Part shown: piece after piece, positions 1 through 39,570 of the stretch
Position numbering within the stretch: the first letter of the stretch is position 1
How the letters are laid out: every line of letters begins with the position of its first letter
DNA from: Lama glama
Lineage: Eukaryota
Length of the DNA: 64,000 bases
NCBI GenBank assembly: GCA_028534125.1
Contig: CM052816.1
Span: forward strand, 20,772,001 to 20,836,000
Direction of reading: 5' to 3'
Translations under genes and position numbers: made by a program
Notes under the pieces: model-generated
Seen by the model: only the letters and a program-made list of their open reading frames with translations
The model's database searches: none
Told to the model about the DNA's origin: nothing

Positions 1-3000
1 ATCTTTATTATTTCCTTCCTTCTGCTGACTTTTGCTTTTGTTTGCTCTTCTTTTTCTAATTCTTTTAGGTAATAGGTTAGGTTGTTTACTTGAGATTGTT
101 CTTGTATTTTGAGGAAGGCCTGTATCGCTATAAACTTCCCTCTTAGCACTGCTTTTGCTACACCCAATAGATTTTGTGTGGTTGTGTTTTCATCGCCATT
201 TGTCTCAACATATTTTTTAATTTCTTCTTTGATTTTGTCATTGACCCATTGGTTTTTTGGTAGAATATTGTTTAATCTCCATGCTGTTGTTTTTTTCTCC
301 TTTGTTTTTCTGTGGTTGATTTCTAGTTTCATGGCATTGTGATCACAAAAGATATTTGAAATAATTTCTATCCTCTTAAATTTGTTGAGGCTTCTCTTGT
401 GCCCGAGTACATAATCTATCCTAAAGAATGTTCCATGTGCACTTGAAAAGAATATATATTCTGTTTTTGGGGGGATGTAATGTCCTAAAAATATCAACCA
501 AGTCTAACTGTACTATTGTGTCATTTGGCATCTCTGTTGCCTTATTGATTTTCTGTCTAGAAGACCTGTCCAATGATGTTAATGGGGTGTTAAAATCTCC
601 TACTATGATTGTGTTCCCATCAATTTCTCCCTTTATGTATGTTAGTATTTGTTTTATATATTTAGGTGCTTCTATATTGGGTGCATATATGTTAATAAGT
701 ATAATATTCTCATCTTGTATTACTCCTTTAATCATTGTGTAGTGTCCTCCTTTATCTTTTTCTATGGCCTTTGTTTTAAAGTCTGTTTTGTCTGAAATCA
801 GTACTGCTACTCCTGCTTTCTTGTCATTTCCATTTGCATGAAATATTTTTTCCATCCTCTCATTCTCAATCTGGGTGTGTCCTTCTCCCTAAAGTGGGTC
901 TCTCGTATGCCACATATTGTAGGTTCTTGTTTAATTATCTAATCTACCACTCTGTGTCTTTTGATTGGAGCATTTAGTCCATTGACATTTATGGTAATTA
1001 TTGATAGATGTATGTTTATTGACATTTTGAACTTAGTTTTCCACTTGATTTGGTATTTCCTCTTTGTTCCTTCCTTTTTCTTTTTCTTTTTGTGGTTTGA
1101 TAATTTTCTTTTGTATTATCTTGGTTTCTTTTTGGTTTTTATGACTCTATTGTATGCCTTGGATCTGTGGTTACCCTGTTTTACGAATGTATTAACCCAT
1201 TACTACATCTGTTTGCTTTAAACTGATAGTTATATAAGCTCAAAGGCATCCTAAAAAGAATGAAAAAAAATTTTAATCTGTATTTTCTTGCTCCCCTTTC
1301 CCACTTTTAATGATTTTGATGTCCTCTTTTACATCTTCATGTTTATTTTGTTGTAGCTGTAGTTATCGCCTTTCCAATTATGGTTTTCTCCTTTCTATAG
1401 CACCCGGCTTCTTTTCTATTTAGAGTAGACCTTTCAATATTTCTTGCAGCATAGGTTTATTATTGCTGAATTCTTTCAGTTTTTGCTTGTCTGTGAAATT
1501 CTTTCTCTCTCCTTCTATTCTAAAGGATAGCCTTGCTGGATAGAGTATCCTAGGTTGCAGCTTTTTTTCATTCAGGACTTTGAATATATCCTGCCACTCC
1601 CTTCTGGCCTACAAAGTTTGTGTTGAGAAATCAGCTGAAAGCCTTATGGGGGTTCCCTTGTAACTGACTCTTTGTTTTTCTCTTGCTGCCTTTAGAATCA
1701 TTTCTTTATCTTTAACCTTGGCCATATTAATTATAATATGTCATGGTGTAGGTCTGTTTGGGTTCTTCTTGTTGGGAACCCTCTGTACTTCCTGTACTTA
1801 GATATCTGTTTCCTTCTTCACATTTGGGAAGTTTTCAGTCATGATTTCTTCAAATTCCTTTTCAATCCCCTTTTCTCTTTCTTCTTGTGGAATCCCTATT
1901 ATGCGTAGGTTGGCACACTTTATATTATCTCATAGATCCCTTATATTGCTTTCATTGGTTTTTACTTGCTTTTCTGTCTGCTGTTCTGATTGGGTGACTT
2001 CCGTTATCCTGTCTTTTAAGTCACCTATTCATTCCTGTGCATTGTCTTGTCTACTTTTGACTGCCTTTTGCTCAGCTCTTAGCCAGTGAGTTTGCTGTTT
2101 TTAATTGGCTCCTCTTTATAGTTTCTATAGTATTCTCTCTCTATTCTTAGTCTCTCTTATTTCCTTCAGTGCTTTTATCATCCCCTTTTTGAAGTCATGA
2201 TCTAGTAGACTATCGAGGTCTATTTCATTGATCATTCTCTCAGGAGACTTCTCTTGTTCTTTTAGTTGGGAGTAGTTCCTCTGCGTCTTCATTTTATTTA
2301 TCTCTCTCTGGCACAATGGATTACAGAGTATCAGCCACCTACTGTGGTCCTGAAGGGCTGTTTTTTTCTTTTTTAAAGAGGATGTGTTCCTGCGTAGACT
2401 GTGTGCCTCTAATAATTTTGTTATGAGGTCTGTTTTTAGTATGGATGGTTGCAATGTCTTTCTTCCGTGTGTGCTGGCTGTTATCCCATGTGTGTGGCCA
2501 GTGTTGGGATGACCAGAGCCTGCCCTGGTTGTTGAGCAGGGCCTCGTTTTCCTTCTGTGGTTGTCACAGCCCTGACAGGGGCCAGGTCTGTTCCCCTCTT
2601 GTTGGCATGGAGGCTCCGAGACCTGTTTCTGAGCTGTGGCGCTTGGGAGGTGGGATTGGAGCACTTTAAGTACTCTTCGCTGCCTCTACCCTTGTCCCCA
2701 CTTTAGCTGTGGGAATGTCATTGCTCTGCCCTGGAGTTCCCCAGTTTCTCTGCCCTCTACCAGTGCAGATCCGCCAACTTCTAGGTCACACACCTGGATT
2801 GTGGCTCGCTGTCGGGTCAGTGCTGTCCCCAGTGCCAAATGCAGCTCCTACACTCACTCTATGATCAAACTCCACGCATTTCTCTTAGAGGCCTGCACTG
2901 GTAGAGCCGCCAGCCCTGCAGCAGCTGTGCGGTCGCACTGCCAGGTCAGCACCATCACGAAGCCTAGACTCTTGCCGCCTTTCCTGCCTCACCCTGCTCT

Positions 3001-3140
3001 ACCTCCCCTCCCTGCCCCGCCAGGACATTGCATTGTTGCTATTGGAGAATCCAGATGTAGGTTGCGAGTATGATCAGTTGGCAGGTCAGTGTTGCTCTGC
3101 TGTGGGGGGCACACTGGGGGGGATAGGAACCCTGCCTCCT
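1..3140 (-). mobile_element. LINE-1, 5' part (5' UTR, ORF1 remnant, inter-ORF, ORF2 endonuclease region); runs off the left edge; decayed
   Basis: The minus strand gives an ORF1-like start at 2292 (MKTQRNYSQLKEQEKSPE...) and an ORF1 end ...KGLL* at 1420-1422. ORF2 starts at 1025 (MSINIHLSIITINVNGLNAPIKRHRV). Endonuclease motifs [27 protein letters not shown] and IVGDFNTPL are in ORF 421..855. Internal stops and frameshifts are present. GC-rich 5' UTR at about 2400-3140; that boundary is approximate. Confidence 0.93.
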
Positions 3141-3984
3141 TTATCCCGGCCCTGGTGCTGAGCACAGGCCTGGTCAGAAACAGCTGACCTAGCAAGCATC
3201 TGATAAAGGACCCATGGCGTAGATATAAGGGCAGCCCTGTCCTCAGCAGGACTGAGGTTGGTGAACTACTGGCTTGGTCATCCAGCTCCCAGTGGGCTCA
3301 GTAGGTCACATGCAGACATCTGATGCTGCAGGGCTTCCCAGGAGAGGTCCGGGAGGGCTGTGCTGCTGGAAGGCTCTCAGAGGCAGTGGGCATGCAGAGC
3401 TTCCGGGCAAGAAGACCTGGGAGGGCTGACAAGGCGCCGTGTGTGCTCAGGAGGGAAGGAACACTGCCTGGCTGAGGTACCTCGTGAAAAAGGAGTGAGA
3501 ACCTAGTAACAGATTCACCTGTGGGATGTGTTCCTTTTCACCATCATCCCAAGCATGAGTCACAAGCGTGAAAGACGTCCCTGAGCAGCTTGTGTAGCAT
3601 TCAGTGCTGTCGCCCAGCTGTGCTGCGGGGGGTTGGGTTTGGGCCCTTCTTGGCCTAACAGACAGCCTGTGCTGAGCTAAGGACACACAGACAGGGAGCG
3701 ATGTTCTCTGTCAGCTCCTCCGGCTGGGTTCTCTTTGGTCAGAGGGAGGACAGGAAGCGGAGGATGATGAAGTGCGGGAGGAGGCCCTGGCCAGCTCCCT
3801 GCCTCACTTAGGGCTCAGAAAACTCCAGGTGAACAGCAGATGTGCTGGGCAGGCAGTGTGTGGCCGGTGGGCCCAAGAGACGGAGATCCCACTCCCACAA
3901 ACAGGAGCTGGGTAGGGCTGTTCTACCCGAGACACAGTGCAGACCTGAGTGGCAACTTCTCTGTCACAGAGTCAAGACATGAAC

Positions 3985-4140
3985 TGTGAGCCAGAGAGAC
4001 CTGGGTTCAAGTCCCAGTGCTGGTACTTCCTTGACATGCAGTCTTAGGTGAGTAAACTCACCTGTGAAGTGAAGACAGCTGCAGTCCCTCCTGCTTCGCA
4101 GGCCTGATGAGCTATGTGTCAGGTACTTGGGAAATGCCTG
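3985..4140 (+). mobile_element. MIR SINE fragment
   Basis: AGACCTGGGTTCAAGTCCCAG B-box-like MIR head followed by a degenerate core; recognised by eye. Confidence 0.5.
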
Positions 4141-5884
4141 GCCGGATACAATTCAGAGTCCGAGGTGGGACAGATATGGGGGAGATTTTGTTTTCTCTCA
4201 AGCCATATTTAACAGTCAGTGGTGGAGAAAGATGATTTGAGCTGGTGGCCCCTCAGGGAGCTTCCCACCCATTATACAGATGAGAAAATCAAGACCCAGA
4301 GGAAGCTGCCAAAGCAAGGAATAAAATAGACTTCTGCCTGGAGCTGCCCCACTCCCTAGTGGCAGGGGCAGGACCCCATCCACAGGCTGGGCCACCATCT
4401 TCTGAGGCTTCCCCATCCATGACTCTGCCTTGACGTGGTTTGCTCAAGGGAACCCTTCCAGGCAACTACTTCCTCTCTCAAATGATTAATAGAACTTCCC
4501 CATAGAAGGCCTCCCAGAGATGAGGCCTGAACACTGACATGATTTATAACTTCATGCAAACCTCCGGCACTGCTTTCATAGAAAGGAGCGAAAACTTCAG
4601 ACATAAATGATGAATCCATTAAATTAAAAACACCCTTGACCTCCCCATGGTTCAGACAAGTAACGATTCCTTCCCAAAACACAATCATAATCTCCCGAAT
4701 CTGTTTATTACTCCAGCTTGGTACTTTTGTGAATGTGCCTCTTACTTAGGACGTATTTATGCTGCCTTTCACCTGGGAAATGATCGATGTCTCCCAAAGA
4801 AAACGGGCCTTTGTGTTATGTATTCAATTGTTTTCACGGGAAGGTCTTGCAAGTTTAAAAGGATACAAATGTGTTTACCCAGGCTATATTAATTTCTAAT
4901 AATTTTTAGTGTGTGAATTAACAGAAAAGAAGAGGGGAGATCAGGACCAGAGGAAAACAGTTGGGTCTTTGCCTTGTTGCTAGCAGAAAGCTTCGTCTCC
5001 ACCCGATCCCTACCCTGGGAAGGCAGACGCTTTCTCAGTCTCTCACAAAGAAAATGCAGGACTTTTCCTGACGGGGCCCCAGCCAAGCAGGGACCAAGGA
5101 GACCAAGGTCTTAGACGCCTCCCTGCCCAGGGTTCTCTTCGGGCCCTGCGTGTCCTGGCCGGAGGCTGGATCCAGGGCTCCCAGCTGCAGTCTTAGCGAC
5201 ACCTCATCACACGTGAGAACAGTTGGGTCCTGGAGGACAGTTAGCTGAGCTCCCACCCAACTCGTGGGATGATTGGGTTTTTTTTCCCCATAACATCCTT
5301 GTGCCAGTTTTCCACTTACTAAGTCAGGGCAAGATGGGCTTCTCAGGGGAGCTCCTTGGTGTCCCAGGGGGTTGCCTTCCATGTCACAGGCCTCCTTGTG
5401 TAGGGCGTGGAGCTGGGAAGCCCTCTGACCCCACTCTGGCCCAGGGGACCTGGGACTGTCTGCTGGGCCCCCTCCCACTGCTCCTGCCCAGGCTGTGCTG
5501 CTTCAGTCTCCTCCACGCCAGTCCCCCAGGAGCGACAGGAAGGGAGGCCCGGGCCGCTGGGTCACAGGCGGGGCAGCAGCAGCTTCTGCCCCCGTGAGCC
5601 CACAGTCTGTGGTCACAGACACGTACACGCAGCATGCATTCGGTGGTGTGGGCTCCGCCCCGACCCCGCGACGTGCGGCAGCCCCGTGAACTCTCTGCCC
5701 GGGCTAATGCAGGGCTAATGTTGAACTGAACTGGGTGGCACTGTTCTAGAACAAGGTGGATCCTTGACTCCCCTGCCTTGCCCTGATTGTTCCCTTGGCT
5801 GAGAAGGCTCCCTCCTCCGCCCCCATTCCCCTCTCCGCCTTGCTTTGCTGCCAGGACCACCTTAGCCTTCAGTGCCGTCATCGC

Positions 5885-7450
5885 CCATTCAACAGACATT
5901 TCCTGAGTTTCTCCCCGTGCCGCTTACCAGGCTAAGCAATGGACGGACCAAAATCCCTGTCCTCGTGGAGCACGTCAAAGGGTGAAACGTCCTAGGGAGG
6001 AAAACTTAAAAATGGGAGGGAGTAAGGGGAGTCAGAGAAAAGGTAGAAACTCTAGGTAGGATGGCAAGGGCAGGCCTTAATGAAAAGGTGACACGTGTGT
6101 CAATTTGCTGGGAAAGTCAAAGATGCCTCCTAACGATCCTGGTCTGAGTACCAGGAGTAGAGTGGCCGTTCACCAAGACGAGGAGAGGGCAGAGGAGCAG
6201 GCTTGGGGAAGAAAGATGAGGAGCCCGCGGGGACGTGATAGAGGTGAGGGGTCGTGCAGCCCCTTGGGTGTCTAAGACTGGAGTTGAAGGGGGAGGTTTG
6301 ACTGGAGATGGAAATTGCAGATGCCTCACAGAGTGGATGGTACTTAAAGTCAGTGGACCAGGATAGATCCTGTAGGAATTCAAAATGAGAATGTCCTACA
6401 GCCGAGCACGGCAGCGCTGAAAGCCGGGTGGGGAGGAGGGGGCGGTGAGAAACAGCAGCAAGGCAGGTGGAGAGGAAACCACAGAGACAGAAGAAATGTG
6501 ATGTGTGGTAGGAATGTGGCATCCGGGGCCAGGTGGTGTCTGGGCCCAAGGAGGAGGTGTGATAGGTTGTGCTGAATGCCACAGGCAGGTCAGGGAAGGG
6601 GAGGACAGAGAGCTGGCTGTTGGGTCAAGGTCAACATGGGAAGGAGGTGTCACTCTGGCCCGGAGAAGAGCCGTTTCCCTGACATGGTGGGGAAAGTCTG
6701 TCCGGAACTGGCTCAAGGGAGGAAGAGGAGTGACAGCCACCAAGTAGGACAACTTTCCAGGGTGCTTCCAAGAAGAAAAATGGGACAGAGCTGGGGAGAG
6801 AAGTTGGGGTGAAGAGGTTTTGTGAGAGTTCCAAGATGGAAATTAAAAGCATTTTATGGCCTGATAGGAAAGATCCAGTGGAAAGGGAGAGTGGGAGGGA
6901 GGTGCAGGAGCGCATCCTGGACGCAACATGAGGGGATGGAATTGAGGAATGAGGATGGCATGAGACTAAAAATCGAGCGTTTCTCTGGAGAAGGGAAGAA
7001 GAATGGTCTGGTGGTGGCAATGAGGTCCCAGGAGGACCCCTGCCCCACCACCCAGGCCCTGGAGTTAAGGGCAGAGAGACGTACATCCGATCAAGAGGCA
7101 GCAGACGGGGTGTCACCAGGTTTCCGTCTGAGCAAGAAGGTGAAGGAATGTTGACAGAAGAGTTTGAGGACAGTGGGCATTTTGCTGGTGGCACAGTGGA
7201 AGGTTCTGGGGACGAGGGATGCCCCAGAGACTTAGGCTTTTGGAAAGACTGACAGGATCCTGAATCAAGGGCATGAATGCAGGGGTCCTAATGATCCTTG
7301 GTTGGAGATGAGGGAACTAAGGAGAGGGGCCACTGGGAGGTGGAGCATGAGGGTGTCAGAGGCCATCTCTGGTCCTGCTGATGGAGGGTTGGAGGTCCAA
7401 GAAGGAATGGCCTTAGCTCCCAGGATGACTGGCTTCTGGAGACCTCAAGG
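5885..7450 (-). mobile_element. LINE-2 fragments (ancient)
   Basis: CATTCAACAGACATTTCCTGAG...AAATCCCTGTCCTCGTGGAGC resembles an antisense L2 3' end, followed by purine-rich L2-like body; boundaries approximate. Confidence 0.55.
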
Positions 7451-8399
7451 CCTGCTGACGGTGCATCTCACTCAGCATTTGTGAGCGGTCTTTTTGCCTC
7501 TGCCAGTTGCAGGCCCAGGTGTCTCTGCCCAGTAGTTGGTCCTATATTTTTAAGTGAATGTCTCATTCCACACTCTTGACTTTCAGTCAGGTTTCACTTT
7601 GTTCTAGAATAGTGCCACCCAGAATATTAGCCCTGAATTGGGCTGCAAGGGTTTCCAAGTCAGGACTGACTCAGGGTCTCCCCTGGAACCTCGTAGGTAG
7701 AAAACCCGCCATCCCCAACCCAGACCTTTGGAGTCAGACATGAGAGGTGGGGGGTGCTTGGCATTGTTTGAACAAGCGCCTCCCCGAGAGGTGCAGACAC
7801 ACATTCAAGTTTGAAAACTTCGTGGGTCCACAGATTCCTGTCAAAGGTCAGAGCAGAGGCAAAGACCAGTGTTCAAGGCTGGTGCTGCCCACTGGCCATC
7901 TCACTGAGGGGGCCAGTCCACAAACCTCCAGTCAGGTCTGTCCAGTGAACCAGGAACTCTGTCAATAAAGGGTGTGGCCCCACAGGCATCAAGGAGGTCA
8001 GGATTTCCTCTGTGAGGTGGACAGAGTGGTTCTGGGTGCCCTGTTCTGATAAGCCTTCCTGGATCCCTGTCCCATGTCCCCAGGGTTCCCTTCTGGTAGT
8101 TCTCATCACACTAGCAGTTATGTCTGATCAGCATTCCCCGATAGGAACCTTCATGAGGCCAGGCACTGGGCAGATCTTACTGCTGTGTCTGTAATGCCTG
8201 ACACTTGGCTGGGGCTCAATAATTGTTGGCTGCACAATAGTGAGTTGACAGAACTTGGTAAAATCAAACAAGACCATTAATGTGCTGGACTCCGAGATGG
8301 GAATTCCCTCAGCCCTTCCCCCTCCCCCGCCTCTCCTCCTCTCTCTACTTGCTACTATAATATTTGAAATACTTTGAAATATCTGGTATGGAAAAATCA

Positions 8400-9800
8400 C
8401 AGTCATCACTCTGCTTTTTCAAAATTTCTTCTGTTCTTGCACATTTTTGCTTCTAGCTAAATTTTAGAATTGTTTCGTCAAGACCCCACCGACTGATGTG
8501 AATTTGAATGAGGTTAAATGTTTGGCTTAATTTGGAGTATCTTGTTTCTTTTTTTTTTAACATTTTTTATTGATTTATAATCATTTTACAATGTTGTGTC
8601 AAATTCCAATGTTCAGCACAATTTTGGAGTATCTTGTTTCTTAACAACAGCAAGTCTTCCTATCCAAGCTCATCTCTCTCCAATTATTCAAGTCTTTTTT
8701 TTTTTTTAATGTCTGCAGTAAGATGTTACATTTCCCTTCGTTTCAGTCCACTCTGTTCTGTTTTGTTGCTGCTGGTCGATAAGTAAGCTATCAGTTTTGT
8801 TTTGGTGCTGGCCCTGTATGGTACTAACTTACTAAAACTTACTACTTCTGGGTTCATTATGTGGAGCGTATCATTTTTTGCCATCTTTTTAGTATTTGTT
8901 CCTCCCATTTCTTGCCTTCCATTGACAATAGCATCCAGCAGAATGTTGGTATTGCCTCCTTCCCCCTTCCTGCTTTCCCGACTTAATGTTTCACCATTCT
9001 GGAAAGACTGGGGCTGTTTCTTCTTTTTATAGGCATATTCTTCATTGTAGGAAGAAAATATTCTGCTGTTCCTATTTTATTGAGGTTTTTTCCTCCCAAG
9101 AAATGGATTTTGAATTTATTTCAAAGGCCCTTTCACCATATCTAGCAAGAGAATCAATTGGTTTCTCTTTTTTGACTGGCTTTGACTTGGATATGATTAA
9201 TTACAGCTTTCCCAATAGTTCATCGCTGTAACATAGTATACTTGGTAGTATGTTCTTTTACTACCATGCTGGGTTTAATTTGCTAGTATTAGAATTTTGA
9301 TATCTCTTGTGAGTGAGTTAGGTCATGCTCATCAATTTGGTGCTGTCTTTGGCAGGTTTTGGTGTCCAGGTTTTACTGGCTTCACGATAAAATTTGGAAC
9401 ATCTTCTGTTGTACTAGGAATTATCCATTCTTTAAATGTACAAAAGAACTTCCCTATAAAACTAATCTGGGTGCTTTAGGGGTTGGTAGTTCTTTGTTTA
9501 AGAGCTTTATTGAGGTGTAATTGATAAACTACACATCTGTAAAGTACACAGTATGATAAGCTTAGACATACGCATATACCCATGACACCATCACCACAAT
9601 CACCCATAACCGTCACGTCCACGAGTTTCCTCGTGTCCCTTTGTTTTTCTTTCTTGTTTATTTTTGCAGTCAGAACACTTAACCTGCAATCTGCCTTCTT
9701 AATAGACGTTTAAGTGCACAACATAATATTACTGATTAAAGGCTCCGTGTTGTACCGCAGGCCTCAGAGCTTACTCATCCTGCATAACTGAAGAGCAGTA
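8400..9800 (-). mobile_element. Old L1M-type fragments, including an L1MA/MB-like 3' end at ~9500-9790
   Basis: T-rich antisense L1-like sequence; AGCTTTATTGAGGTGTAATTGA...CACCATCACCACAATC is typical of old eutherian L1 3' termini. Confidence 0.55.
8551..8622 (-). mobile_element. Extremely 5'-truncated young L1 (72 bp) with perfect 20-bp target-site duplication
   Basis: TTTGGAGTATCTTGTTTCTT at 8531-8550 and 8623-8642 flanks poly(T) plus an L1 terminus that closely matches the ends at ~12020-12085 and (reverse complement) ~41155-41232. Confidence 0.92.
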
Positions 9801-12011
9801 TATTAAAGTGTTGTAAATATTCTCTTCTTAATTCCATGTCCATCCTTTAACGTTTCCTTTTAAGTGATTCATTGAGATTTTCTTATAATTGAACATGATA
9901 GTCTCATATTTTTTCATCTCCTCTGTGGTCTCTATTTTTTTCACTGACCAAACTCGCCATAATTTTGGCTATTTTATTCATGTTTATGAATAACCAGGTC
10001 TTAGATGTATCAATTCCACTCTATTTTTGTATATTTTTTAATTGAAGTATAGTCAGTTTACAATGTTGTGTCAGTATCTGGTGTACAGCACAGTGCCTCC
10101 GTCATACATATGCATACATACATTCGTATTCATATTCTTTTCACCATAAGTTACTACAAGATATGGAATATAGTTCCTTGTGCTATACAGTATTGCTTAT
10201 TTTATATTAAATATCTGCAAATCTTGAACAACCAATTTATCCCTTCCTACCCCCTTGCCTCCCTGGTAACCATATATTTGTTTTCTAAGTCTATGAGTCT
10301 CTTTCTGTTTGTAAATAAGTTTGTATGTCCTTTTTTTAGATCCCACATATAAGTGATATCATATGGTATTTTTCTTTCTCTTTCTGGCCTACTTCACTTA
10401 GAATGACAATCTCCAGGTCCATCCGTGTTGCTGTGAATGGCATTATTTTTCTTTTTTATGGATGACTAATATTCCATTATATAAAAACACCGCAACTTCT
10501 TTATCTAGTCGTCTGTTGGAGGACAATTTAGGTTATTTCCATGTCTTGGCTATTATAAATAGTGCTGCTGGAAATGTTGGAGTGCATGTATCTTTTTGAA
10601 TTAAGATTCCCTCAGAAGTGGGATTGTTGGTACATAAGGTAAGTCTATTTTTAGTTTTTTGAGAACTCTCCATAGTGTTTCCCATAATGGCTGCACCAAA
10701 CTACATTCCCACCAGCAGTGTAGGAGTGTTCCCATTTCTCCATACCCTCTCCAGCATTCATCATTCATGGACTTTTGAATGATGGACATTCTGACTGGTG
10801 TGAGGTGATACCTCATGATAGTTTTGGTTGCTTTTCTCTGATAATTAGCAATATTGAGCATTTTTTCATGTGCCTATTGGCCATTTGTATGTCTTCATTA
10901 GAGAATTGCTTGTTTAGGTCTTCTGCTCATTTTTGGATTGGGTTGTTTGTTTTTTTACTGTTAAGTTGTATGAGCTGTCTATATATTCTGGAAAGTAAGC
11001 CTTCATCAGTCGCACCATTTGCAGATATTTTTCCCAATCCGTAGGTTGTCATTTTGTTTTGCTTGTGGTTTCCTTTGCTGTGCAAAAGTTTGTAAGTTTA
11101 ATTAGGTCCCATTTGTTTATTTTTGCTTTTATTTCTATTGCTTGGGTAGGCTGCCCTCGGAGAACGCTGCTGAGATTTATGTCAGAGAATGTTTTGCCTA
11201 TGTTCTCTTCTAGGAGATTTATCATGTCTTGCCTTATATTTAAGTCTTTAAGCCATTTTGAGTTTATTTTTGTGTATGGAGTGAGGGAGTGTTCTAAATT
11301 CATTGATTTACATGCAGCTATCCAGTTTTCTCAACACTGTTTGCTGAAGAGATTATCTTTTCTCCATTGTATATTCTTGCCTCCTTTGTTGAAGATTAAT
11401 TGATCATACGTCTGTGGGTTTATTTCTGGGCTCTATTTTGTCCCATTGATCCATATGTCTGTTTTTGTACCAAGACTATGCTGTTTTGATTACTGTAGCT
11501 CTGTAGTATTGCCTGAAGTCTGGGAGGGTTATTCCTCTAGCTTCATTCTTTTTCTTCACTATTGCTTTGGCAATTCTGGGTCTTTTGTGATTCCATATAA
11601 ATTTTACGATTGTTTGTTCTAGTTCTGTGAAGAATATCCTAGGTAATTTGATAGAGATCACATTAAATCTCTAGATTGCCTTGGGTAGCATGGCCATTTT
11701 AATGATATTGATTCTTCCAGTCCAAGAGTATGGGATATCTTTCCATTTCTTTAAGATATCTTTCCATTTCTTTAAGTCATCATTAATTTCCAAAATCAGT
11801 GTTTGGTAGTTCTCCAGGTAAAAGCCTTTCAACCTCCTTGGTAAGATTTATTCCTGACTATTTTATTGTTTTGGATGAGATTTTTTAAAGAGGTGGTTTC
11901 TTTATTTTCTTTCCCTGCTAATTCATAGTTAGTGTAAAGAAATGCAACTGCTTTTTGCATGTTAATCTTATATCCTGCTACCTTGCTGAATTCTTTCATC
12001 AGCTGGAGTAG

Positions 12012-15000
12012 TTTTTTTTAAACTTTTTTTATTTGGTTATAGTCATTCTACAATGTTGTGTCAAATTTCAGTGTAGAGCACAATTTTTCAGCTATACATG
12101 AACATACATACATTCATTGTCACATTCTCTTTCACTGTGAGCCACCACAAGATCCTGTATATATTTCCTTGTGCTACACAGTACAATTTTGTTTATCTAT
12201 TCTACATTTTGAAATCCCAGTCTGTCCCTTCCCCCCAACCGCCTGGCAACCACAAGTTTGTATTTGATGTCTGTGAATCTGTTTCTGTTTTGTATTTTTT
12301 TTTTAAGATTCTGCACATGAGCAATCTCAAATGATACTTTTCTCTCTTTCTGGCTTGTTTCACTTAGAATGAAATTCTCCAGTAACATACATGTTGCTGC
12401 AAATGGCGTTATGTTGTCAGGTTTTATGGCTGAATAGTATTCCATTGTATAAATATACCACATCTTCTTAATCCAGTCATCTGATGATGGACATTCAGGC
12501 TGTTCCCATGTCTTGACTATTGTAAATAGGGCTGCTATGAACAGTAGGGTGCAGGTGTCATTTTGAAGTAGGGTTCCTTCTGGATATATGCCCAGGAGTG
12601 GGATTCCTGGGTCATATGGTAAGTCTGTTCCTAGACTTTTGAAGAATCTCCATACTGTTTTCCACAGTGGCTGCACCAAACTGCATTCCCACCAGCAGTG
12701 TAGGAGGATTCCTTTTCTCCACAGCNNNNNNNNNNNNNNNNNNNNNNNNNNNNNNNNNNNNNNNNNNNNNNNNNNNNNNNNNNNNNNNNNNNNNNNNNNN
12801 NNNNNNNNNNNNNNNNNNNNNNNNNNNNNNNNNNNNNNNNNNNNNNNNNNNNNNNNNNNNNNNNNNNNNNNNNNNNNNNNNNNNNNNNNNNNNNNNNNNN
12901 NNNNNNNNNNNNNNNNNNNNNNNNNNNNNNNNNNNNNNNNNNNNNNNNNNNNNNNNNNNNNNNNNNNNNNNNNNNNNNNNNNNNNNNNNNNNNNNNNNNN
13001 NNNNNNNNNNNNNNNNNNNNNNNNNNNNNNNNNNNNNNNNNNNNNNNNNNNNNNNNNNNNNNNNNNNNNNNNNNNNNNNNNNNNNNNNNNNNNNNNNNNN
13101 NNNNNNNNNNNNNNNNNNNNNNNNNNNNNNNNNNNNNNNNNNNNNNNNNNNNNNNNNNNNNNNNNNNNNNNNNNNNNNNNNNNNNNNNNNNNNNNNNNNN
13201 NNNNNNNNNNNNNNNNNNNNNNNNNAGAATGTTTTGCCTATGTTTTCTTATAGGAGGTTTATTGTATCTTGTCTTATGGTTAAGTATTTGATCCATTTTG
13301 AGTTTATTTTTGTGTATGGTGTAAGGGAGTGTTCTAGGTTCATTGATTTACATGCTGCTGTCCAGTTTTCCCAACACCATTTGCTGAAGAGACTGTTTTT
13401 ATTCCATTGTATATTCTTGCCTCCTTTGTCGAAGATCAGTTGACCAAAAGTTTGTGGGATCATTTGTGGGCTCTCTATTCTGTTCCATTGGTCCATATGT
13501 CTGTTTTTGTACCAATACTATGGTGTCTTAATTACTGTAGCTCTGTAGTATTGTCTGAAGTCTGGGAGAGTTATTCCTCCAGCCTCTTTCTTTCTCTTCA
13601 GTAATGCTTTGGCAATTCTACATCTTTTGTGGTTCCATATAAATTTTATTATGATTTGTTCTAGTTCTGTGAAGTATGTCCTGGGTAATTTGATAGAGAT
13701 TGCATTAAATCTGTAGACTGCCTTGGGCAGTATGACCATTTTAACAATATTGATTCTTCCAATCCAGGAGCATGGAATATCTTTCCATTTTTTTAAAGTC
13801 TTCTTTAATTTCCTCCATCAGTGTTTTATAGTTTTCTGTGTATAACTCTTTCACCTCCTTGGTTAGATTTACTCCTAGGTATTTGATTACTTTGGGTGCT
13901 ATTGTAAAGGGGATTGTTTCTTTACTTTCTTTTTCTGTTGAGTCATCGTTAGTGTAAAGAAATGCAACTGATTTTTGAATGTTAATCTTGTAACCTGCTA
14001 CCTTGCTGAATTCTTCGATTAGTTCTAGTAGTTTTTGTGTGGACCTTTTAGGGTTTTTTATATATAGTATCATGTCATCTGCATATATAGTGACACTTAC
14101 ACCTCTTCTTTTCCAATTTGGATCCCTTTTATTTCTCTCTATTGCCTGATTGCTGTGGCTAGGACTTCCAAGACTATGTTGAATAACAATGGTGATAGTG
14201 GGCATCCTTGTCTTGTCGCAGATTTTAGTGGGAAGCTTTTGAGTTTTTCACCGTTGAGTACTATGCTGGCTGTAGGTTTGTCATATATAGCTTTTATTAT
14301 GTTGAGATATGTTCCCTCTACACCCACGTTGGTGAGAGTTTTTATCATAAATGGGTGTTGAATTTTATAAAAAGTTTTTTCTGCATCTAATGAGATGATC
14401 ATGTGGTTTTTGTCCTTTGTCTTGTTGATGTGATGTATTACATTGATTGATTTGCATATGTTGAACCATCCTTGTATCCCTGGGGTGAACTCCACTTGAT
14501 CATGATGTATAATCTTTTTTATGTGCTGTTGGATTCTATTTGCTAGTATTTTCTTGAAGATTTTTGCATCTATGTTCATCAGTGATATTGGTCTGTAATT
14601 CTCTTTTGGTGATGTCTTTGTCTGGTTTTGGTATCAGGGTGATGGTGGCTTCATAGAATGAGTTTGGGAGTATTCCCTCTTTTTCAGGCTTCTGGAAGAG
14701 TTTGAGGACTGGTATGAGTTCTTCCTTGTATGTTAGGTAGAATTCCCCGGTGAAGCCATCCGGTCCTGGACTTTTATTTGTAAGGAGGTTTTTTATTGCT
14801 AATTCGATTTCATTTCTAGTGATTGGTTTGTTCAAGTGGTCAGTTTCTTCTTGATTCAGCCTTGGTGCACTGTATGATTCCAGAAACTTGTCCATCTCCT
14901 CTAGGTTATCCATTTTGGTTCTATATAGTTTTTCATAATATTCTCGTATGATATTCTGTATTTCTATGTTATTTGTTGTAATTTCTCCATTTTCCTTTCT

Positions 15001-16051
15001 TATTTTGCTTATTTGTGCTCTCTTTTTCCTTCTTTGTGAATTTGGCCAGAGGTTTGTCGACTTTATTTACTCTTTCAAAAAACCAGATTTTGGTTTGATT
15101 GATTTTTTCTACTGTTTTCTTAATCTCTATTTTATTTATTTCCTCCCTGATCTTTATTATCTCCTTCCTTCTGCTGACTTTTGGGTGTTTTTGCTCTTTT
15201 TCTAGTTCTTTTAGGTGGTGGATTAGATTATTTGAGATTGTTCTTCTTTTTTGAGGAAGGCCTGTATCACTATAAACTTCCCTTTTAGCACTGCCTTTGC
15301 TGTGTATCATGAATTTTGTGCGGTTGTGCTTTCATTATCATTTGTCTCAAGGTATTTTTTAATTTCAGCTTTGATTTCCTCATTGACCCATTGGTTTTTT
15401 AATAACATATTGTTTAATCTCCATGCTTTCCTTTTTTTCTCCTTTGTTTCTCTGTAGTTGATTTCTAGTTTCATGGCACTGTGGTCAGTAAAGATGCTTG
15501 AGATAATTTCTATCTTCCTAAAATTGTTGAGGCTTCTTTTGTGCCCAAGCACATGATCAATCCTAGAAAATATTCCATGTGTACTTGAAAAGAATGTATA
15601 GCCTATTTTGGGGGGGTGTAATGCTCTGAAAATATCCATCAAATCTAATTTTTCTATTGTATCATTTAATTTCTCTGTTGCCTTATTTATTTTCTGTCTG
15701 GAAGATCTGTCTAGTGATGTTAATGCGGTGTTAAAAATCTCCGACAATGATTGTATTCCCATCAATTTCACCCTTTATCTCTGTTAGTTGTTGTTTTATG
15801 TACTTAGGTGCTCCTATGTTGGGCACATATATATTAATGATTGTAATATCGTCATCTTGTTTTACTCCTTTAATCATTATAAAATGTCCTTTATCTTTCT
15901 TTATGGCCCTTGTTTTAAAGTCTATTTTGTCTGAAATCAGTACTGCTACACCTGCTTTTTTGGCTTTTCCATTTGCATGGAATATCCTTTTCCATCCTTT
16001 CACTCTCAATCTATATGTGTCCTTCTCCCTAAAGTGGGTCTCTTGTATTGT
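12012..16051 (-). mobile_element. Nested younger LINE-1 (~4 kb, 5'-truncated in the endonuclease domain), spanning the N gap
   Basis: Poly(T) and a young L1 terminus at 12012. ORF2 pieces: [75 protein letters not shown] is duplicated at 12007-12016 and 16052-16061. Multiple frameshifts. Confidence 0.92.
12726..13225. other. Assembly gap, exactly 500 N
   Basis: Run of N; the round number suggests a placeholder gap size. Confidence 0.99.
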
Positions 16052-17120
16052 AGTAGTTTTTATGTGGAGCTTCTAGGGTTTTCTATATACAGTATCATGT
16101 CATCTGCATATAATGACAATTTTACCTCTTCTCTTCTGATTTGGACCCCTTTTATTTCTTTTTCTTGCCAGACTGCTGTGGCTAGGACTTCTATGTTGAA
16201 TAAAAGTGGTGAGAGTGGGCATCCTTGTCTTGTTGCAGATTTTAGTGGGAAGGCTTTCAGTTTTTCACAGTTGAATATTATGCTGGCTGTGGGCTTGTCA
16301 TAAATAGCTTTTATTATGTTCAGATATGTTCCCTCTGTACCCACTTTGATGAGAGTTTTTATCGTAAATGGGTGTTGGATTTTATCAAGTGCTTTATCTG
16401 CATCTATTGAGATGGTTGTGTGGTTACTGTCCTTTTTGTGGATGTGGTGTATCACACTGATAGATTTGCATATGTTGAACCATCCTTCTGTCCCTGAGAT
16501 AAATCCAACTTGATCATGGTGTTTGATCTTTTTTATGTGTTGTTGGATTCTGTTTGCTAAAATTTTGTTGAGGATTTTGCATCTGTTTTCATCAAGTCAC
16601 ACTGACCTGTAATTTTCTTTTTTGGTAGTGTCTTTGGTTTTGGTATCAGGGTGATGGTGGCTTCATAGAATGAGTTTAGGAGTACTCCCTTCTTTTCAAT
16701 CTTTTGGACAAGTTTGAGACGGACCAGTATGAGTTCTTCTTTGTATGTTTGGTAGAATTCCCCAGTGAAGCCACCTGGTCCTGGACTTATGTTTTCAGGG
16801 AGGTTTTTTATTGCTAATTCTACTTCATTTCTAGTGATCAGTCTGTTCAAGTCATCTGTTTCTTATTGATTGTGTCTTGGTGAACTGTATGTTTCCAGAA
16901 ACTTGTTCATTTCTTCTAGGTTGTCCATTGTGTTTCCATATAGTTGTTCCTAGTATTCTCTTATGGTTTTTTTGTATTTCTGTGGTATTGGTTGTAATTT
17001 CTCCATTTTCCTTTCTTATTTGTTTATTTGTGTTCTCTCTCTTTTCTTCTTGGTGATCTTGGGCAGAGGTTTGTCAACTGTTTACTCTTTCAAAGAATCT
17101 GCTCTTGGTTTGATTGGTTT

Positions 17121-17646
17121 TTTCTTTTTTTTGTTTGTTTACTTTTTTATTGAAGTATAGTCAGCTACAATGTGTCAATTTCTGGTGTACAGCACAATTT
17201 CCCAGGCATGCATATACATACATATAGTTGTTTTCACATTTTTCATTAAAGGTTATTACAAGATATTGAACATAGTTCCCTGTGCTATAAAGAAGAAACT
17301 TTTTAAAAATATATTTTTATATATAGTGGCTAACATTTGTAAATCTCAAACTCCCAAATTTATCTCTTCCCATCCCCTTTCCCTAGTAACCATAAGATTA
17401 TTTACGACATCTGTGAGTCTGTTTCTGTTTTATAAGGATGAGTTCATAGTGTTTTTCCTTTATTTATTTATTTCTTTTTAGGTTTCACATATAAGTGATA
17501 CCATATGGTATTTTGTTTCTCTTTCTGGCTTACTTTATGTAGTATGAAGATCTCCTGGTCCATCCATGTTGCTGCAAATGGCATTATTTTATTCTTTTTT
17601 ATGGCCGAGTAGTATTTCATTGTATGTATATGTATGTATGTGTGCA
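17121..17646 (-). mobile_element. Short L1 3'-end fragment
   Basis: T-rich tail then TTTTTTATTGAAGTATAGTCAGCTACAATGTGTCAA; same terminus type as 31451-32107; ends in a (TATG)n-like run. Confidence 0.85.
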
Positions 17647-26945: not shown

Positions 26946-27416
26946 GAGTGGCCAGTGGAACAGGAGAAGGACTCAGTGAGGATGATGAGTTGTGTAGGAG
27001 AAGAATCAAAGATGCTTTGAACTTGGCTGACCAGATGCTGATGGGGACCCAGAAGGAAGAGCAGGGATGGAGGTGAGGAACAAGTCAGGTGTGGGTGTTG
27101 AGTATGAGATGACTATAAGAGGACCACATGGGAACTGGAAATGGTGGTTCTGAGCTAAAGCAAAGATCTGGGAACCATTAACCTGCAAGCACCAGCTAAA
27201 GCTAGGATGGCAGAAAGGTGGGTGTGAGTGATTTGAGTTGAGCACTAGCACAACCCTGAGGATTATCAGCAGTGAAGGGGCAGAAAGACCAAGGTGAACC
27301 ACAAAGACTGAGACAGCGACAGGCCAGAGTCAGAATGACAAACATGAGAATGTATATCATGGAAGACAAGGGAAAAGAAGGCCCCCTTTGCACTCATTTT
27401 TTGTTCAAAAAATATC

Positions 27417-27964
27417 TTTTTTTTACATATATGTACTGTTCATTGTTTCTAAGAACAGTTTAGAGCTTTAGCTTTTTAAATTTACATAGTTAGCAAAGGG
27501 ATAAAGCCAACCACAAAATAAGAATCAACAGAATGTGGTAATCCAGTCATAAAGGACAGTCAGCTGTGCTTACACATATTGAAGAAATCAATCATCTAAG
27601 TTACAAATAAAAAGTAGTTCATTTGTGTCTTTTTTAGATTCCACTTACAAGTGATATCATACGGCATTTTTCTTTCTCTTTCTGGCTTACTTCACCTAGA
27701 ATGACAATCTCCAGGTCCATCCATGTTGCTTCAAATGGCATTATTTTATGGCTGAGTAGTATTCCATTGTGTGTATGTGTATAGACCACATCTTCTTTGT
27801 CCTGTCATCTGTTGATTGACATTTGAGTTGTTTCCATGTCCTGGCTATCCTATATAGTGCTGCTGTGAACATTAGGGTGCATGTGTCTTTTTGAATTATA
27901 TTCTTCTAAGGATATATGCCCAGGAGTGAGATTGTTGGATCATACAGTAAGTCTATTTTTAGTG
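27417..27964 (-). mobile_element. L1 3' fragment with atypical 3' tail (copy 1)
   Basis: Poly(T) at 27417-27424; ~190 bp absent from the other L1 ends in the window; standard L1 sequence from ~27615 (TTTAGATTCCAC...TTTCTGGCTTACTTCAC). Confidence 0.85.
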
Positions 27965-29455
27965 TTTTTCCCCCTTTTACAGTTTTATTAGGTAGAATTA
28001 CTACAGTTTGCACATATGCATTATATTCCATGTAAATGCAACATATACAATATACTGCACTTTGTTTTAGTTTACATAGATGTACTGCTCATTGTTTCTA
28101 AGATTACAGCTTTAGCTCTAGATTTTTAAACTTACATAATTCTCAAAGGAATAAAGCCAACCACAAAATAAGAATCAACATAATGAGGTAATCCAATCAT
28201 AAAGGACAGTCAAATGTGCTTACACATATTATTTGTAACTTAGATGATTGATTTCTTGAATAAGTAGTTCATTTGTGTCATTTTTTTTTAGATTCCACAT
28301 AATATATCATATGGCATTTTTCTTTCTCTTTCTGGCCCAGTTCACTTAGAATGATGATCTTCAGGTCCATCCATATTGCGGCAAAAGTCATTATTTTATT
28401 CTTTTTTATGGCTGAGTAATGTTCCATTTGTATACGTGTATCACATCTTCTTTATCCAGTCATCTATTGATTGACAGTTGAGTTGTTTTGATGGCCAAAC
28501 TATTGTAAATAGTGCTGCTATGAACACTGTGGGGCATGTGTCTTTTTGAATTTTATTTTTCTCTGGATATATCCCCAGGAGTGCTGGATCACATGGTAAG
28601 TCTATTCTCAGTTTTTTTTAGGAGCCTCCATACTGTCCTCCATAGTGGCTGCACCAAACTATACTCCCACCAACGGTGTAGGAGAGTTCCCTATTCTCAG
28701 CACCCTTTACAGCATCTATTGTTCGTGGACTTTTCAATGATGGCCATTTTGCCTGGTGTGAGGTGATACTTCACTGTAGTTTTGATTTGCAGTTTTCTGA
28801 CAATTACTGATGTTGAGCATCTTTACATGTGCTTGTTGGACATCTGGATGTCTTCTCTGGAGAGAGGTTTGTTTAGGTCTTCTGCACATTTTTTAATGGG
28901 CTGCTTGTTTTTCTGATATTAAGGTGTATAAACTGTTAGGATATTTTGGAAATTAGTCCCTTGTTGGTCACATCACTTGCAAATATCTTCTCCCATTCTG
29001 TGGATTCTCTTTTTCTTTTAGTGATGGTATCGTTAGCTGTGCAAAAGCATTTAATGACACCTCGTTGGTTTATTTTAGCTTTTATTTCCATTACTCCATG
29101 AGCTGGTTCAAGAAATTATATTGGTACAATTTATGTCCAAGAGCGTTCTGCCTTTGTTTTCCTCTAGGACTTTCATAATATCTGGTCTTACATTTAAGTA
29201 CTTTATACTACAAGATACAGTAATCAAAACAGTATGGTGGAGGCATTTATGTAGATAAATGGAATAGGATAGAAAGTCCAGAAATAAACCCATTCACTTA
29301 TGGTTAACATAAACAATGGTTGCAAGTATATAAAATGAAGAAAAGACACTTTCTTCAATAACAGTGTGAAAAAAACTGGACAGCTACTGCTAGAAGATTC
29401 TCTAATACCATATACAAAAATAAACTCAAATGGAGTAAAGACTTAAGACGTAAAG
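27965..29455 (-). mobile_element. L1 3' fragment with atypical tail (copy 2) and a 5' inversion (29207-29455 on +)
   Basis: Tail at 27965-28262, antisense L1 to ~29206, then the adjacent upstream ORF2 segment in + orientation (ACAGTAATCAAAACAGTATGG...CCATATACAAAAATAAACTCAAATGG). Confidence 0.85.
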
Positions 29456-29489
29456 GTAAGATCAAGAAATACGTTATTTTTTTCTTTCC

Positions 29490-30850
29490 TGGGTGGATGG
29501 ATGGGGAGGGAGGGAGAGAGAGAAAGAAAAGAAGGCGGGTGGACAGGGATGTAGGTTCATAGATAGATGAACCCAAAGGTGTGTGGCTGGACAAATTGAT
29601 AGGTACGTAAAGAAACAAAAAGATAGGAGGGTGGATAGGTAGGCTCATAGAAAGAGAGAGAGACAAAGAAAGAAAAAAAGAAGTGTGGGGAGGTAAGTTT
29701 CTAGATGTATGGATCCAAAGTGTGTGTGCCTGGACAAATGGATAGGTAGGTAAAGAAACAGACAAATAGGATGCATACCTGTGCAGGCAGGCTAAAAGAT
29801 AGATACATAGAGACAGAGACAGAGGGGGAAGGCGAGTGATAAATAGGCGACAGAAAGAAAGGCAGGTAAAAAAAAGAATAGGAGGGTGGGTGATAAGTAA
29901 GTAGGTAGATTGGAAGGAAGGAAGGAGTATAGTGAGGTAGATTTCCATATGTATGGATCCAAAGTGCACGTGCCTGGACGAAAGGATAGGTATGTAAAGA
30001 GATAGATAAATAGGAGGGTGCGTGGCTGCGCAGTCAGGCTAAAAGATAGATACATAGGGGGAAAGCGAGAGGTAGATGGAAGAGAGGGAGGAAGGAAAGG
30101 TGGCTGTGTGGGTGGATAGGGTAGTAGGTTCCTAGATCGATGTATCAAAAGGTGTGTCCCTGGATGAACTGATAGGTAGGTAAGGAAACAGAATAATGGG
30201 TGGGTGGGTGGATAGGTAGGTTGATAATAGGTAGGCTGATAGATCGAAGGAAGGAAGGAAGAGTGAGGTAGGTTTCTAGAGGTATGGATCCAAAGAGTGT
30301 GCCTGGATGAATGGATAGGTAGGTAAAAAGACAGACATAGAGGGAGGGAGATAGCCTGGTAGCTAGCTAGATTGGAAAGGAACGAGAGAGAGAAAGGAAG
30401 GATGGATAGGGAGATAGGTTCCCAGATAGATGGGTCAAAAAGTGGGTGGCTGGGTGGATAGACAGGATATAAGTTAGATTATAGATATATAGGTAGGTAG
30501 GTAGATCGATTGATCAGGAAGGAGAGAGGAAGGGAGGAAGGCAGGAAAATTGGTGGGTGGATAGGGAGTTGGACTGTTAGATCGATTTATCACAGGGTGT
30601 GTGACTGGACCAATCAATAGGTAAAAAGGTAGGTAGATAGATGGGTTGGTGGATGGGGAGGGAGGAAGGGAGAAAGAAACAGAGGGAGGAAGGGAGAGAG
30701 AGGAAAAAAGAGAGAAGGGAAAGGAAGGAAGAGAGAAAGAGAAAGAGAGAGAGAAAGGGAGGGAGGGAAGGAAGGAAAGTTGAGTCTATGGATAGGCAGG
30801 TTCATGGGTTGGCAGATGGACGGATGGAAGGCTTGATAGGAAGGAAGCAA
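29490..30850. repeat. Purine-rich degenerate tandem array (about seven ~60-bp cores separated by GGAA/GATA/GGTA-type simple repeats)
   Basis: Core ...TAGATGTATGGATCCAAAG.GTGTG.CTGGA..AATGGATAGGTAGGTAAAG recurs near 29569, 29711, 29955, 30142, 30286, 30432 and 30587. Confidence 0.85.
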
Positions 30851-30864
30851 GAAATGAACGGAGC

Positions 30865-33342
<2,478 letters not shown>

Positions 33343-39454: not shown

Positions 39455-39570
39455 AGAGGAAGGTCCAAAATTAAAATACGATTGATGAGGAGAGACTATC
39501 TGGAAGTGCGTAAGAGGAAGGTCCAAAATTAAAATACTATCGATGAGGAGAGACTATCTGGAAGTGTGTA
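39455..39570. repeat. 58-bp tandem duplication (2 copies, 3 mismatches)
   Basis: AGAGGAAGGTCCAAAATTAAAATAC...TGGAAGTG(C/T)GTA at 39455-39512 and 39513-39570. Confidence 0.95.

What the first reader, a model, noticed from the sequence alone, without database searches (positions are those of the whole stretch)
27417..28262. Two diverged L1 copies whose normal 3' terminus is replaced by an unrecognised mRNA-like tail
Seen: the other young L1 ends in the window (10030, 12012, 17121, 31451, 41232, 58080) carry one of the ordinary termini. These two adjacent copies instead join the L1 body (AGTAGTTCATTTGTGTC..TTTAGATTCCAC) to a different AU-rich sequence: about 190 bp in copy 1 and about 290 bp in copy 2. 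Copy 2 extends ~100 bp further, to a minus-strand AATAAA (TTTATT 27984-27989). Copy 1 has its poly(T) at an internal point of the same tail. The copies differ at many positions, so this is not a fresh tandem duplication. Inference: an L1 lineage captured a cellular 3' UTR or flanking DNA as a new 3' end and amplified with it, using two alternative polyadenylation points. I could not identify the source. It may already be catalogued as a camelid L1 subfamily.
Basis: partly seen in the sequence, partly recalled or inferred. Interest (0 to 1): 0.72.

Follow-up and report, generated by a model that had tools for sequence, protein, structure and literature searches.

The report
L1 subfamily with swapped 3' end
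These two jumping-gene (L1) fragments belong to a widespread family in this mammal that replaced almost its whole untranslated tail with an unrelated 290-base sequence of unknown origin and still spread to hundreds or thousands of sites.

Summary
Two minus-strand L1 fragments leave L1 homology 18 nt after the ORF2 stop and continue into a shared tail (191 and 296 bp, 90% identical) unrelated to the six ordinary L1 ends in the window. The tail is not local. In two genomic runs, 2,068 and 1,533 contigs match it; depth bounds the copy number at roughly 500 to 17,000. Dozens of contigs end in poly(A) at the distal AATAAA with unrelated flanks, and others show the same L1 junction. So this is a dispersed L1 subfamily that swapped its 3' UTR and lost the G-rich tract typical of mammalian L1. 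Not shown: that the tail comes from a host mRNA (no mammalian sequence database was available), or that the internal end is a second recurring poly(A) site. New details: copy 2 has a private 28-bp inversion and a twin-priming 5' inversion, and copy 1 starts in copy 2's A-tail. No paper or earlier scan note describing the tail was found; Repbase and Dfam could not be checked, so it may be catalogued. Verdict: real, a variant of a known kind, moderate interest.

The parts
27417..27424 (-). A8 tail of copy 1; coincides with an internal A-rich stretch of the long tail
   Evidence: table 3 (28064 G>T in 94% of X1 depth)
27425..27615 (-). non-L1 tail, short form (191 bp); carries the family-majority allele at 6 of 6 listed near-fixed sites
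27439..27444 (-). AATGAA, possible weak poly(A) signal 14 nt before copy 1's A8 (status as a variant signal is recalled)
27616..27636 (-). ORF2 stop (27634-27636) and the only 18 nt of ordinary L1 3' UTR kept
27637..27964 (-). L1 ORF2 3' end of copy 1, decayed, 5'-truncated at an A-run that abuts copy 2's A-tail
27965..27969 (-). A5 remnant of copy 2's poly(A); other family copies carry long poly(A) from this point
   Evidence: table 7 (32, 37, 9 contigs)
27970..28265 (-). non-L1 tail, long form (296 bp), the high-copy family 3' end
27984..27989 (-). AATAAA, 14 nt before the recurrent poly(A) start
28231..28258 (.). microinversion in copy 2, bounded by a 4-bp inverted repeat; copy 1 and the other family contigs have the other orientation
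   Evidence: tables 5 and 7
28266..28290 (-). L1 3' UTR stub and position of the ORF2 stop in copy 2
28291..29203 (-). L1 ORF2 3' part of copy 2, not inverted
29204..29465 (+). inverted 5' segment of copy 2; its outer end meets the L1 position where the non-inverted part starts (twin-priming pattern)
27405..27418 (.). candidate left target-site duplication of the whole 2-kb unit (weak)
   Evidence: 11 of 14 match; 17 of 1000 background positions score as well; unanchored: 166 of 1000
29462..29475 (.). candidate right target-site duplication (weak; overlaps the last bases of L1 homology)

Best explanation
Both fragments are decayed, 5'-truncated copies of one dispersed L1 subfamily whose founder replaced its 3' UTR. 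Shown: the junction lies 18 nt after the ORF2 stop; the tail is unrelated to ordinary L1 ends and lacks the G-rich tract; it is present at many sites, ends in poly(A) 14 nt after AATAAA and joins L1 at the same place. Inferred: an active L1 lost its own 3' end and became joined to host DNA, so its transcript ended at the first strong signal about 280 nt on; because L1 copying primes on the poly(A) tail (established knowledge), the chimera stayed mobile and founded the family. For the source I give about 45% to anonymous flanking DNA after a 3' deletion, 40% to a host mRNA 3' end gained by a reverse-transcriptase template switch, and 15% to an older repeat. Inferred for this locus: copy 2 came in by twin priming. 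Copy 1 either landed later in copy 2's A-tail or was made in the same event, and its short tail most simply reflects priming or cleavage at the internal A-rich stretch.
For:: 2,068 (X1) and 1,533 (X8) contigs laid on 351 bp. Peak summed depth is 276,466 against 15.8 for this locus's own contig in X1, and 144,775 against 9.03 in X8; one search turns this into bounds of 564-17,498 and 517-16,033 copies. Loose ends before 27965 are poly(T) plus mixed flanks (32, 37, 9 contigs; agreement 0.42-0.53; median 255 letters). Loose ends before 28227 (16 contigs in X8, 7 in X15) read as the L1 stub with the same junction as copy 1. Four of the 32 listed pieces run from the tail into the L1 body (records 7, 8, 12, 16); the two bodies share 9 changes absent from the other copies; 26 of the other 27 pairs share 0-3. 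Searches place the ORF2 stop; at most 7-8 G per 30 nt in the tails, 14-20 in the six ordinary ends.
Against: All four runs are contigs, so summed depth is not a copy number; the tool says so and the bounds span 30-fold. No full-length copy was seen: the longest L1 stretch tied to the tail is about 1.2 kb, so autonomy is inferred. Only 24 of 376 loose-end rows and 32 of 4,133 pieces were shown. The donor sequence was not found. The tail's GC content equals that of ordinary ends.
Confidence: 0.87

Rival explanations
1. The tail is the 3' UTR end of a conserved host gene, captured from its mRNA. This is a version of the best explanation with a specific donor.
For: It ends 14 nt after AATAAA, has a second signal-like hexamer 100 nt upstream and no CpG. 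One tail variant with a shorter distal part shows as a joint in RNA run X15 and as a matching loose end in X17, and is absent from the listed DNA joints (tables 5, 5c, 7; weak).
Against: RNA depth profiles track the DNA profile (Spearman 0.98 and 0.89), as repeats in DNA or pre-mRNA would; no dominant transcript is seen. The tool drops human-like contigs, so this is weak. Any flanking DNA taken by read-through would also end at an AATAAA.
Confidence: 0.4
2. This is simply the 3' end of an L1 family already catalogued in Repbase or Dfam.
For: A repeat this abundant would be picked up by de novo repeat finders. Repbase holds L1-1_Vpa and L1-2_Vpa (PMC6726744, supplement 4).
Against: In part 1 of 6 of that table, several pieces matching the last 70-500 nt of L1-2_Vpa do so at only 73-84%, which fits an old ordinary terminus (inference; no sequences seen). 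No paper describing such a tail came up in 10 searches.
Confidence: 0.6
3. The two copies are an old local tandem duplication of one insertion rather than two insertions or one compound insertion.
For: They are adjacent, share 9 private L1-body changes, and both have C at one tail site where the loose-end consensus of X8, X15 and X17 reads T (table 7).
Against: At 6 of 6 listed sites where at least 90% of family depth differs from copy 2, copy 1 has the family allele (38 rows hidden), so they share no listed private decay. Copy 1 starts exactly at copy 2's A-tail. Shared changes are expected within a subfamily, as for the 12012/41232 pair (9).
Confidence: 0.12
4. The tail is an independent short retroposon or processed pseudogene family that happens to sit beside L1 here.
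For: Some long loose ends beyond 28217-28227 do not read as L1 (2 contigs in X1, 2 in X15).
Against: The most numerous loose ends at this side continue in copy 1's orientation (56, 53, 9, 8 contigs) and then into the L1 stub (16, 7). No Rfam match up to E=1. Copies truncated inside the tail explain the odd ends.
Confidence: 0.06

Closest known systems
Mammalian L1 families with lineage-specific 3' UTRs (Boissinot and Sookdeo 2016, PMC5381506; passages read)
   Same: The 3' UTR is poorly conserved, varies from 148 to 2,751 bp, and ends in AATAAA plus poly(A).
   Different: The paper says mammalian 3' UTRs carry a G-rich tract, absent only in rabbit among those studied, and discusses wholesale replacement for the 5' UTR. 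Here the 3' UTR is swapped at one sharp junction and the G tract is gone. Alpaca is not mentioned in its main text.
L1 3' transduction (mentioned in PMC5381506; mechanism otherwise recalled)
   Same: Non-L1 DNA is carried at the 3' end and ends at a downstream poly(A) signal.
   Different: Transductions keep the L1 3' UTR and add DNA behind it, usually in few copies. Here the UTR is missing and the foreign part became the family's end.
Chimeric retrotranscripts made by template switching, such as U6-L1 (recalled, no call)
   Same: Two RNAs fused in one insertion at a sharp junction.
   Different: The usual order is cellular RNA 5' and L1 3', as dead single copies. Here L1 is 5' and the product was amplified.
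Repbase L1-1_Vpa and L1-2_Vpa (names and match coordinates seen in PMC6726744 supplement 4)
   Same: Camelid L1 consensus families; one of them, or an uncurated Dfam family, may include this tail.

Membership tests
LINE-1 | ORF2 homology up to the C-terminus | tested here: met
   An alignable copy in the window matches human ORF2p 1139-1273, E 4e-48; copy 1 ends in the homologous MISLVSGI-stop. Short 36-39 aa pieces gave no Pfam hit.
LINE-1 | 3' poly(A) after a poly(A) signal | tested here: met
   AATAAA 27984-27989; poly(T) loose ends at 27965 in three runs
LINE-1 | 5' truncation or twin-priming inversion | tested here: met
LINE-1 | target-site duplication | tested here: inconclusive
   11 of 14 match around the whole unit; 17 of 1000 anchored, 166 of 1000 unanchored; anchor chosen after inspection
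Typical mammalian L1 3' UTR | G-rich purine tract | tested here: not met
   7-8 G per best 30 nt against 14-20 in six ordinary ends
Amplified L1 subfamily | many dispersed copies with one shared junction | tested here: met
   tables 1, 2, 5, 7, 8; bounds
Autonomous L1 subfamily | full-length copies with 5' UTR, ORF1 and ORF2 | not testable with these tools
   no genome held
Host mRNA capture | tail homologous to a single-copy gene 3' UTR conserved in other mammals | not testable with these tools
   no mammalian nucleotide collection; a 20-mer scan of three microbial or viral collections gave 7 loci, none matching beyond 20-28 bp
Classical 3' transduction | intact L1 3' UTR and poly(A) ahead of the foreign DNA | tested here: not met
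   only 18 nt of UTR kept
Spliced L1 (SpIRE) | GT donor in L1 at the junction | tested here: not met
   ordinary copies show no GT at the homologous position
Repbase/Dfam camelid L1 family | match to a catalogued consensus | not testable with these tools
   libraries not available; supplements of PMC8605555 could not be read

The most novel reading that the evidence does not exclude
An autonomous camelid L1 lineage took the last 290 nt of a host mRNA as its entire 3' UTR, dropped the G-rich tract thought near-universal in mammals, and scattered thousands of copies of that gene's regulatory 3' end and poly(A) signals across the genome, possibly in two steps (a 190-nt form first, then a 100-nt extension).
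Probability: 0.3. Interest if true: 0.65.

Novelty: new variant of a known kind. Interest (0 to 1): 0.45.

Why it matters
It is a natural experiment on what an L1 3' UTR is for. Passages in PMC7952902 say the UTR is dispensable for human L1 in culture but required for the mole-rat element, and that its G-quadruplex raises activity. A lineage that swapped the whole UTR, lost the G tract and still reached high copy number shows the tract is not needed for success in a germ line. If the donor is a host mRNA, thousands of copies of its 3' regulatory sequence were dispersed. In practice the tail may be an unmasked repeat in these assemblies and a clade marker.

Tried and rejected
No whole genome is held for this window, so no direct copy count was possible. 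A 20-mer shared by both tails gave 3 metagenome, 3 viral and 1 prokaryote-genome loci; none extends beyond 20-28 bp, so all 7 were treated as chance. Rfam found nothing up to E=1. Tail 1 folds only slightly better than shuffles (z -1.74; 9 of 200 as good), so no structure is claimed. No long reading frame lies in the tails. The same 20-mer and its reverse complement are in no paper of the library. Earlier scan notes hold no look-alike. A relative-rate test cannot order the two copies (19 against 30 private changes, p 0.15). Tail against body divergence is borderline (10.1% against 16.8%, p 0.054). One X15 contig of depth 222 at 28104-28113 first looked like an expressed donor; it is about a tenth of the depth of neighbouring bins and contig breakage at indels explains it, so I rejected it as evidence. 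A splice junction was considered and rejected (no GT donor). Supplements of PMC8605555 could not be read and might hold a repeat library with this family.

Full report
Observation. The region 27417-29465 holds two minus-strand L1 fragments in tandem. Each leaves L1 homology at the same point and continues into a tail that occurs twice in the window and nowhere else in it. The tails are 191 and 296 bp and differ at 16 of 158 aligned sites; the L1 bodies differ at 53 of 315. The tail is unrelated to the six ordinary L1 ends: local scores 24-44 with shuffle means 25-34, against 154-450 among the ordinary ends. Its GC content (0.29-0.31) is the same as theirs (0.29-0.35), so AU-richness says nothing about its origin.

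Where the junction lies. An alignable L1 copy in the window matches human ORF2p up to residue 1273, and copy 1 ends in the homologous peptide with its stop at 27634-27636. Only 18 nt of ordinary UTR follow before the tail begins. So nearly the whole 3' UTR was replaced. The G-rich tract is lost: 7-8 G in the best 30 nt of the tails, 14-20 in the ordinary ends. There is no GT donor at the junction, so it is not a splice product.

The tail is a dispersed, abundant repeat. No genome is held, so I laid four public runs, all assembled contigs, on 27945-28295 at 80% likeness (runs). Contigs laid: 2,068 and 1,533 in the two DNA runs, 394 and 63 in the two RNA runs. This locus itself is present (0 differences in 189 bp at depth 15.8 in X1; 1 in 191 bp at depth 9.03 in X8). 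Peak summed depth is 276,466 and 144,775. Summed contig depth overcounts by up to 31-fold because contigs overlap, which gives bounds of about 500 to 17,000 copies, and 93 to 4,361 for the distal part. My estimate is thousands; that is an inference. Independent of depth, 32, 37 and 9 contigs leave the reference at 27965 as poly(T) followed by unrelated sequence (agreement 0.42-0.53), which is what separate insertions ending after the distal AATAAA look like. At the other side, 56, 53, 9 and 8 contigs continue in copy 1's orientation, and 16 (X8) and 7 (X15) continue into the L1 stub with the same junction. Only 24 of 376 loose-end rows, 40 of 78 substitution rows and 32 of 4,133 pieces were shown.

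This locus. Copy 2 carries a 28-bp inversion at 28231-28258 bounded by a 4-bp inverted repeat. Copy 1 and the other contigs have the opposite orientation, so it arose in copy 2. Copy 2's 5' part (29204-29465) is inverted, and its outer end meets the L1 position where the non-inverted part starts, the twin-priming pattern (name recalled). Copy 1 begins at an A-run that abuts copy 2's A5. The two bodies share 9 changes absent from the other six copies; 26 of the other 27 pairs share 0-3 and one shares 9. At 6 of 6 listed sites where at least 90% of family depth differs from copy 2, copy 1 has the family allele, so each copy decayed separately. One site goes the other way: both have C where three loose-end consensuses read T. 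A possible target-site duplication surrounds the whole unit (11 of 14; 17 of 1000 anchored; 166 of 1000 unanchored). Insertion of copy 1 into copy 2's A-tail and a single compound event both fit; the rate test does not separate them (19 against 30, p 0.15). Divergence of 5-8% per copy means roughly 10-17 million years at the camel rate quoted in PMC8605555 (passage), or 25-40 million at a slower recalled rate.

Two poly(A) sites are not shown. The distal end recurs. The internal end is seen only in copy 1. It has an AATGAA 14 nt upstream, but it also lies on an A-rich stretch of the long tail, so cleavage at a weak signal, internal priming, or a relic of an earlier short form all fit. No loose-end cluster at that point is among the rows shown, though such ends would scatter over several positions.

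The donor is unknown. No mammalian nucleotide collection was available. Rfam, three microbial or viral collections and the paper library gave nothing. RNA depth follows DNA depth (Spearman 0.98, 0.89), with no dominant transcript; the tool drops human-like contigs, so a conserved donor could be hidden. I put 45% on flanking DNA reached after a 3' deletion, 40% on a host mRNA end gained by template switching, 15% on an older repeat.

Comparison with what is known. PMC5381506 (passages) reports that mammalian L1 3' UTRs vary widely, carry a G-rich tract except in rabbit, and end in a weak signal often read through. PMC7952902 (abstract and passages) reports the UTR as dispensable in human L1 and required in the mole-rat element. 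PMC5203782 (passages) and PMC8605555 (passages; supplements unreadable) say nothing on camelid L1 ends in what I saw. PMC6726744 (passages; supplement 4 search and part 1 of 6) shows that Repbase holds L1-1_Vpa and L1-2_Vpa, without sequences. Ten searches listed no paper on this tail; apart from the five papers named I saw only listings and abstract openings. The library lacks Repbase Reports and most subscription journals. Earlier scan notes hold no look-alike; notes e1-7801847 and e1-7801848 describe a different L1-derived element carrying a host gene in the same genome, unchecked by me.

Verdict. Real and not local: an L1 subfamily with a replaced 3' UTR. It works like any L1 and is a member of L1, but fails the G-tract feature of typical mammalian ends and is not a classical transduction. 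Changes of L1 ends are a known theme and the family may already sit in a repeat library, so interest is moderate (0.45); it would rise to about 0.65 if a host-gene donor is found.

Noticed in passing
window 29490-30870: Strongly purine-skewed, degenerate tandem repeat with units of about 140-150 bp (GC skew up to 0.62), directly beside the L1 unit.
   Followed up: no
window 27999-28061, runs X15 and X17: A tail variant about 40 bp shorter in the distal part appears as a joint in X15 and as a matching loose end in X17, not among the listed DNA joints. Could be an expressed copy or the donor; one or two contigs only.
   Followed up: partly
window 12012, 41232, 58080 against 10030, 17121, 31451: The ordinary L1 ends fall into at least two groups; the 12012 and 41232 copies share 9 private changes and differ by 11.5%.
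   Followed up: partly
window 12726-13225: Assembly gap of 500 N inside an L1; several long 'ORFs' listed there are artefacts of it.
   Followed up: no
window 39455-39570: 58-bp tandem duplication, 94% identical.
   Followed up: no
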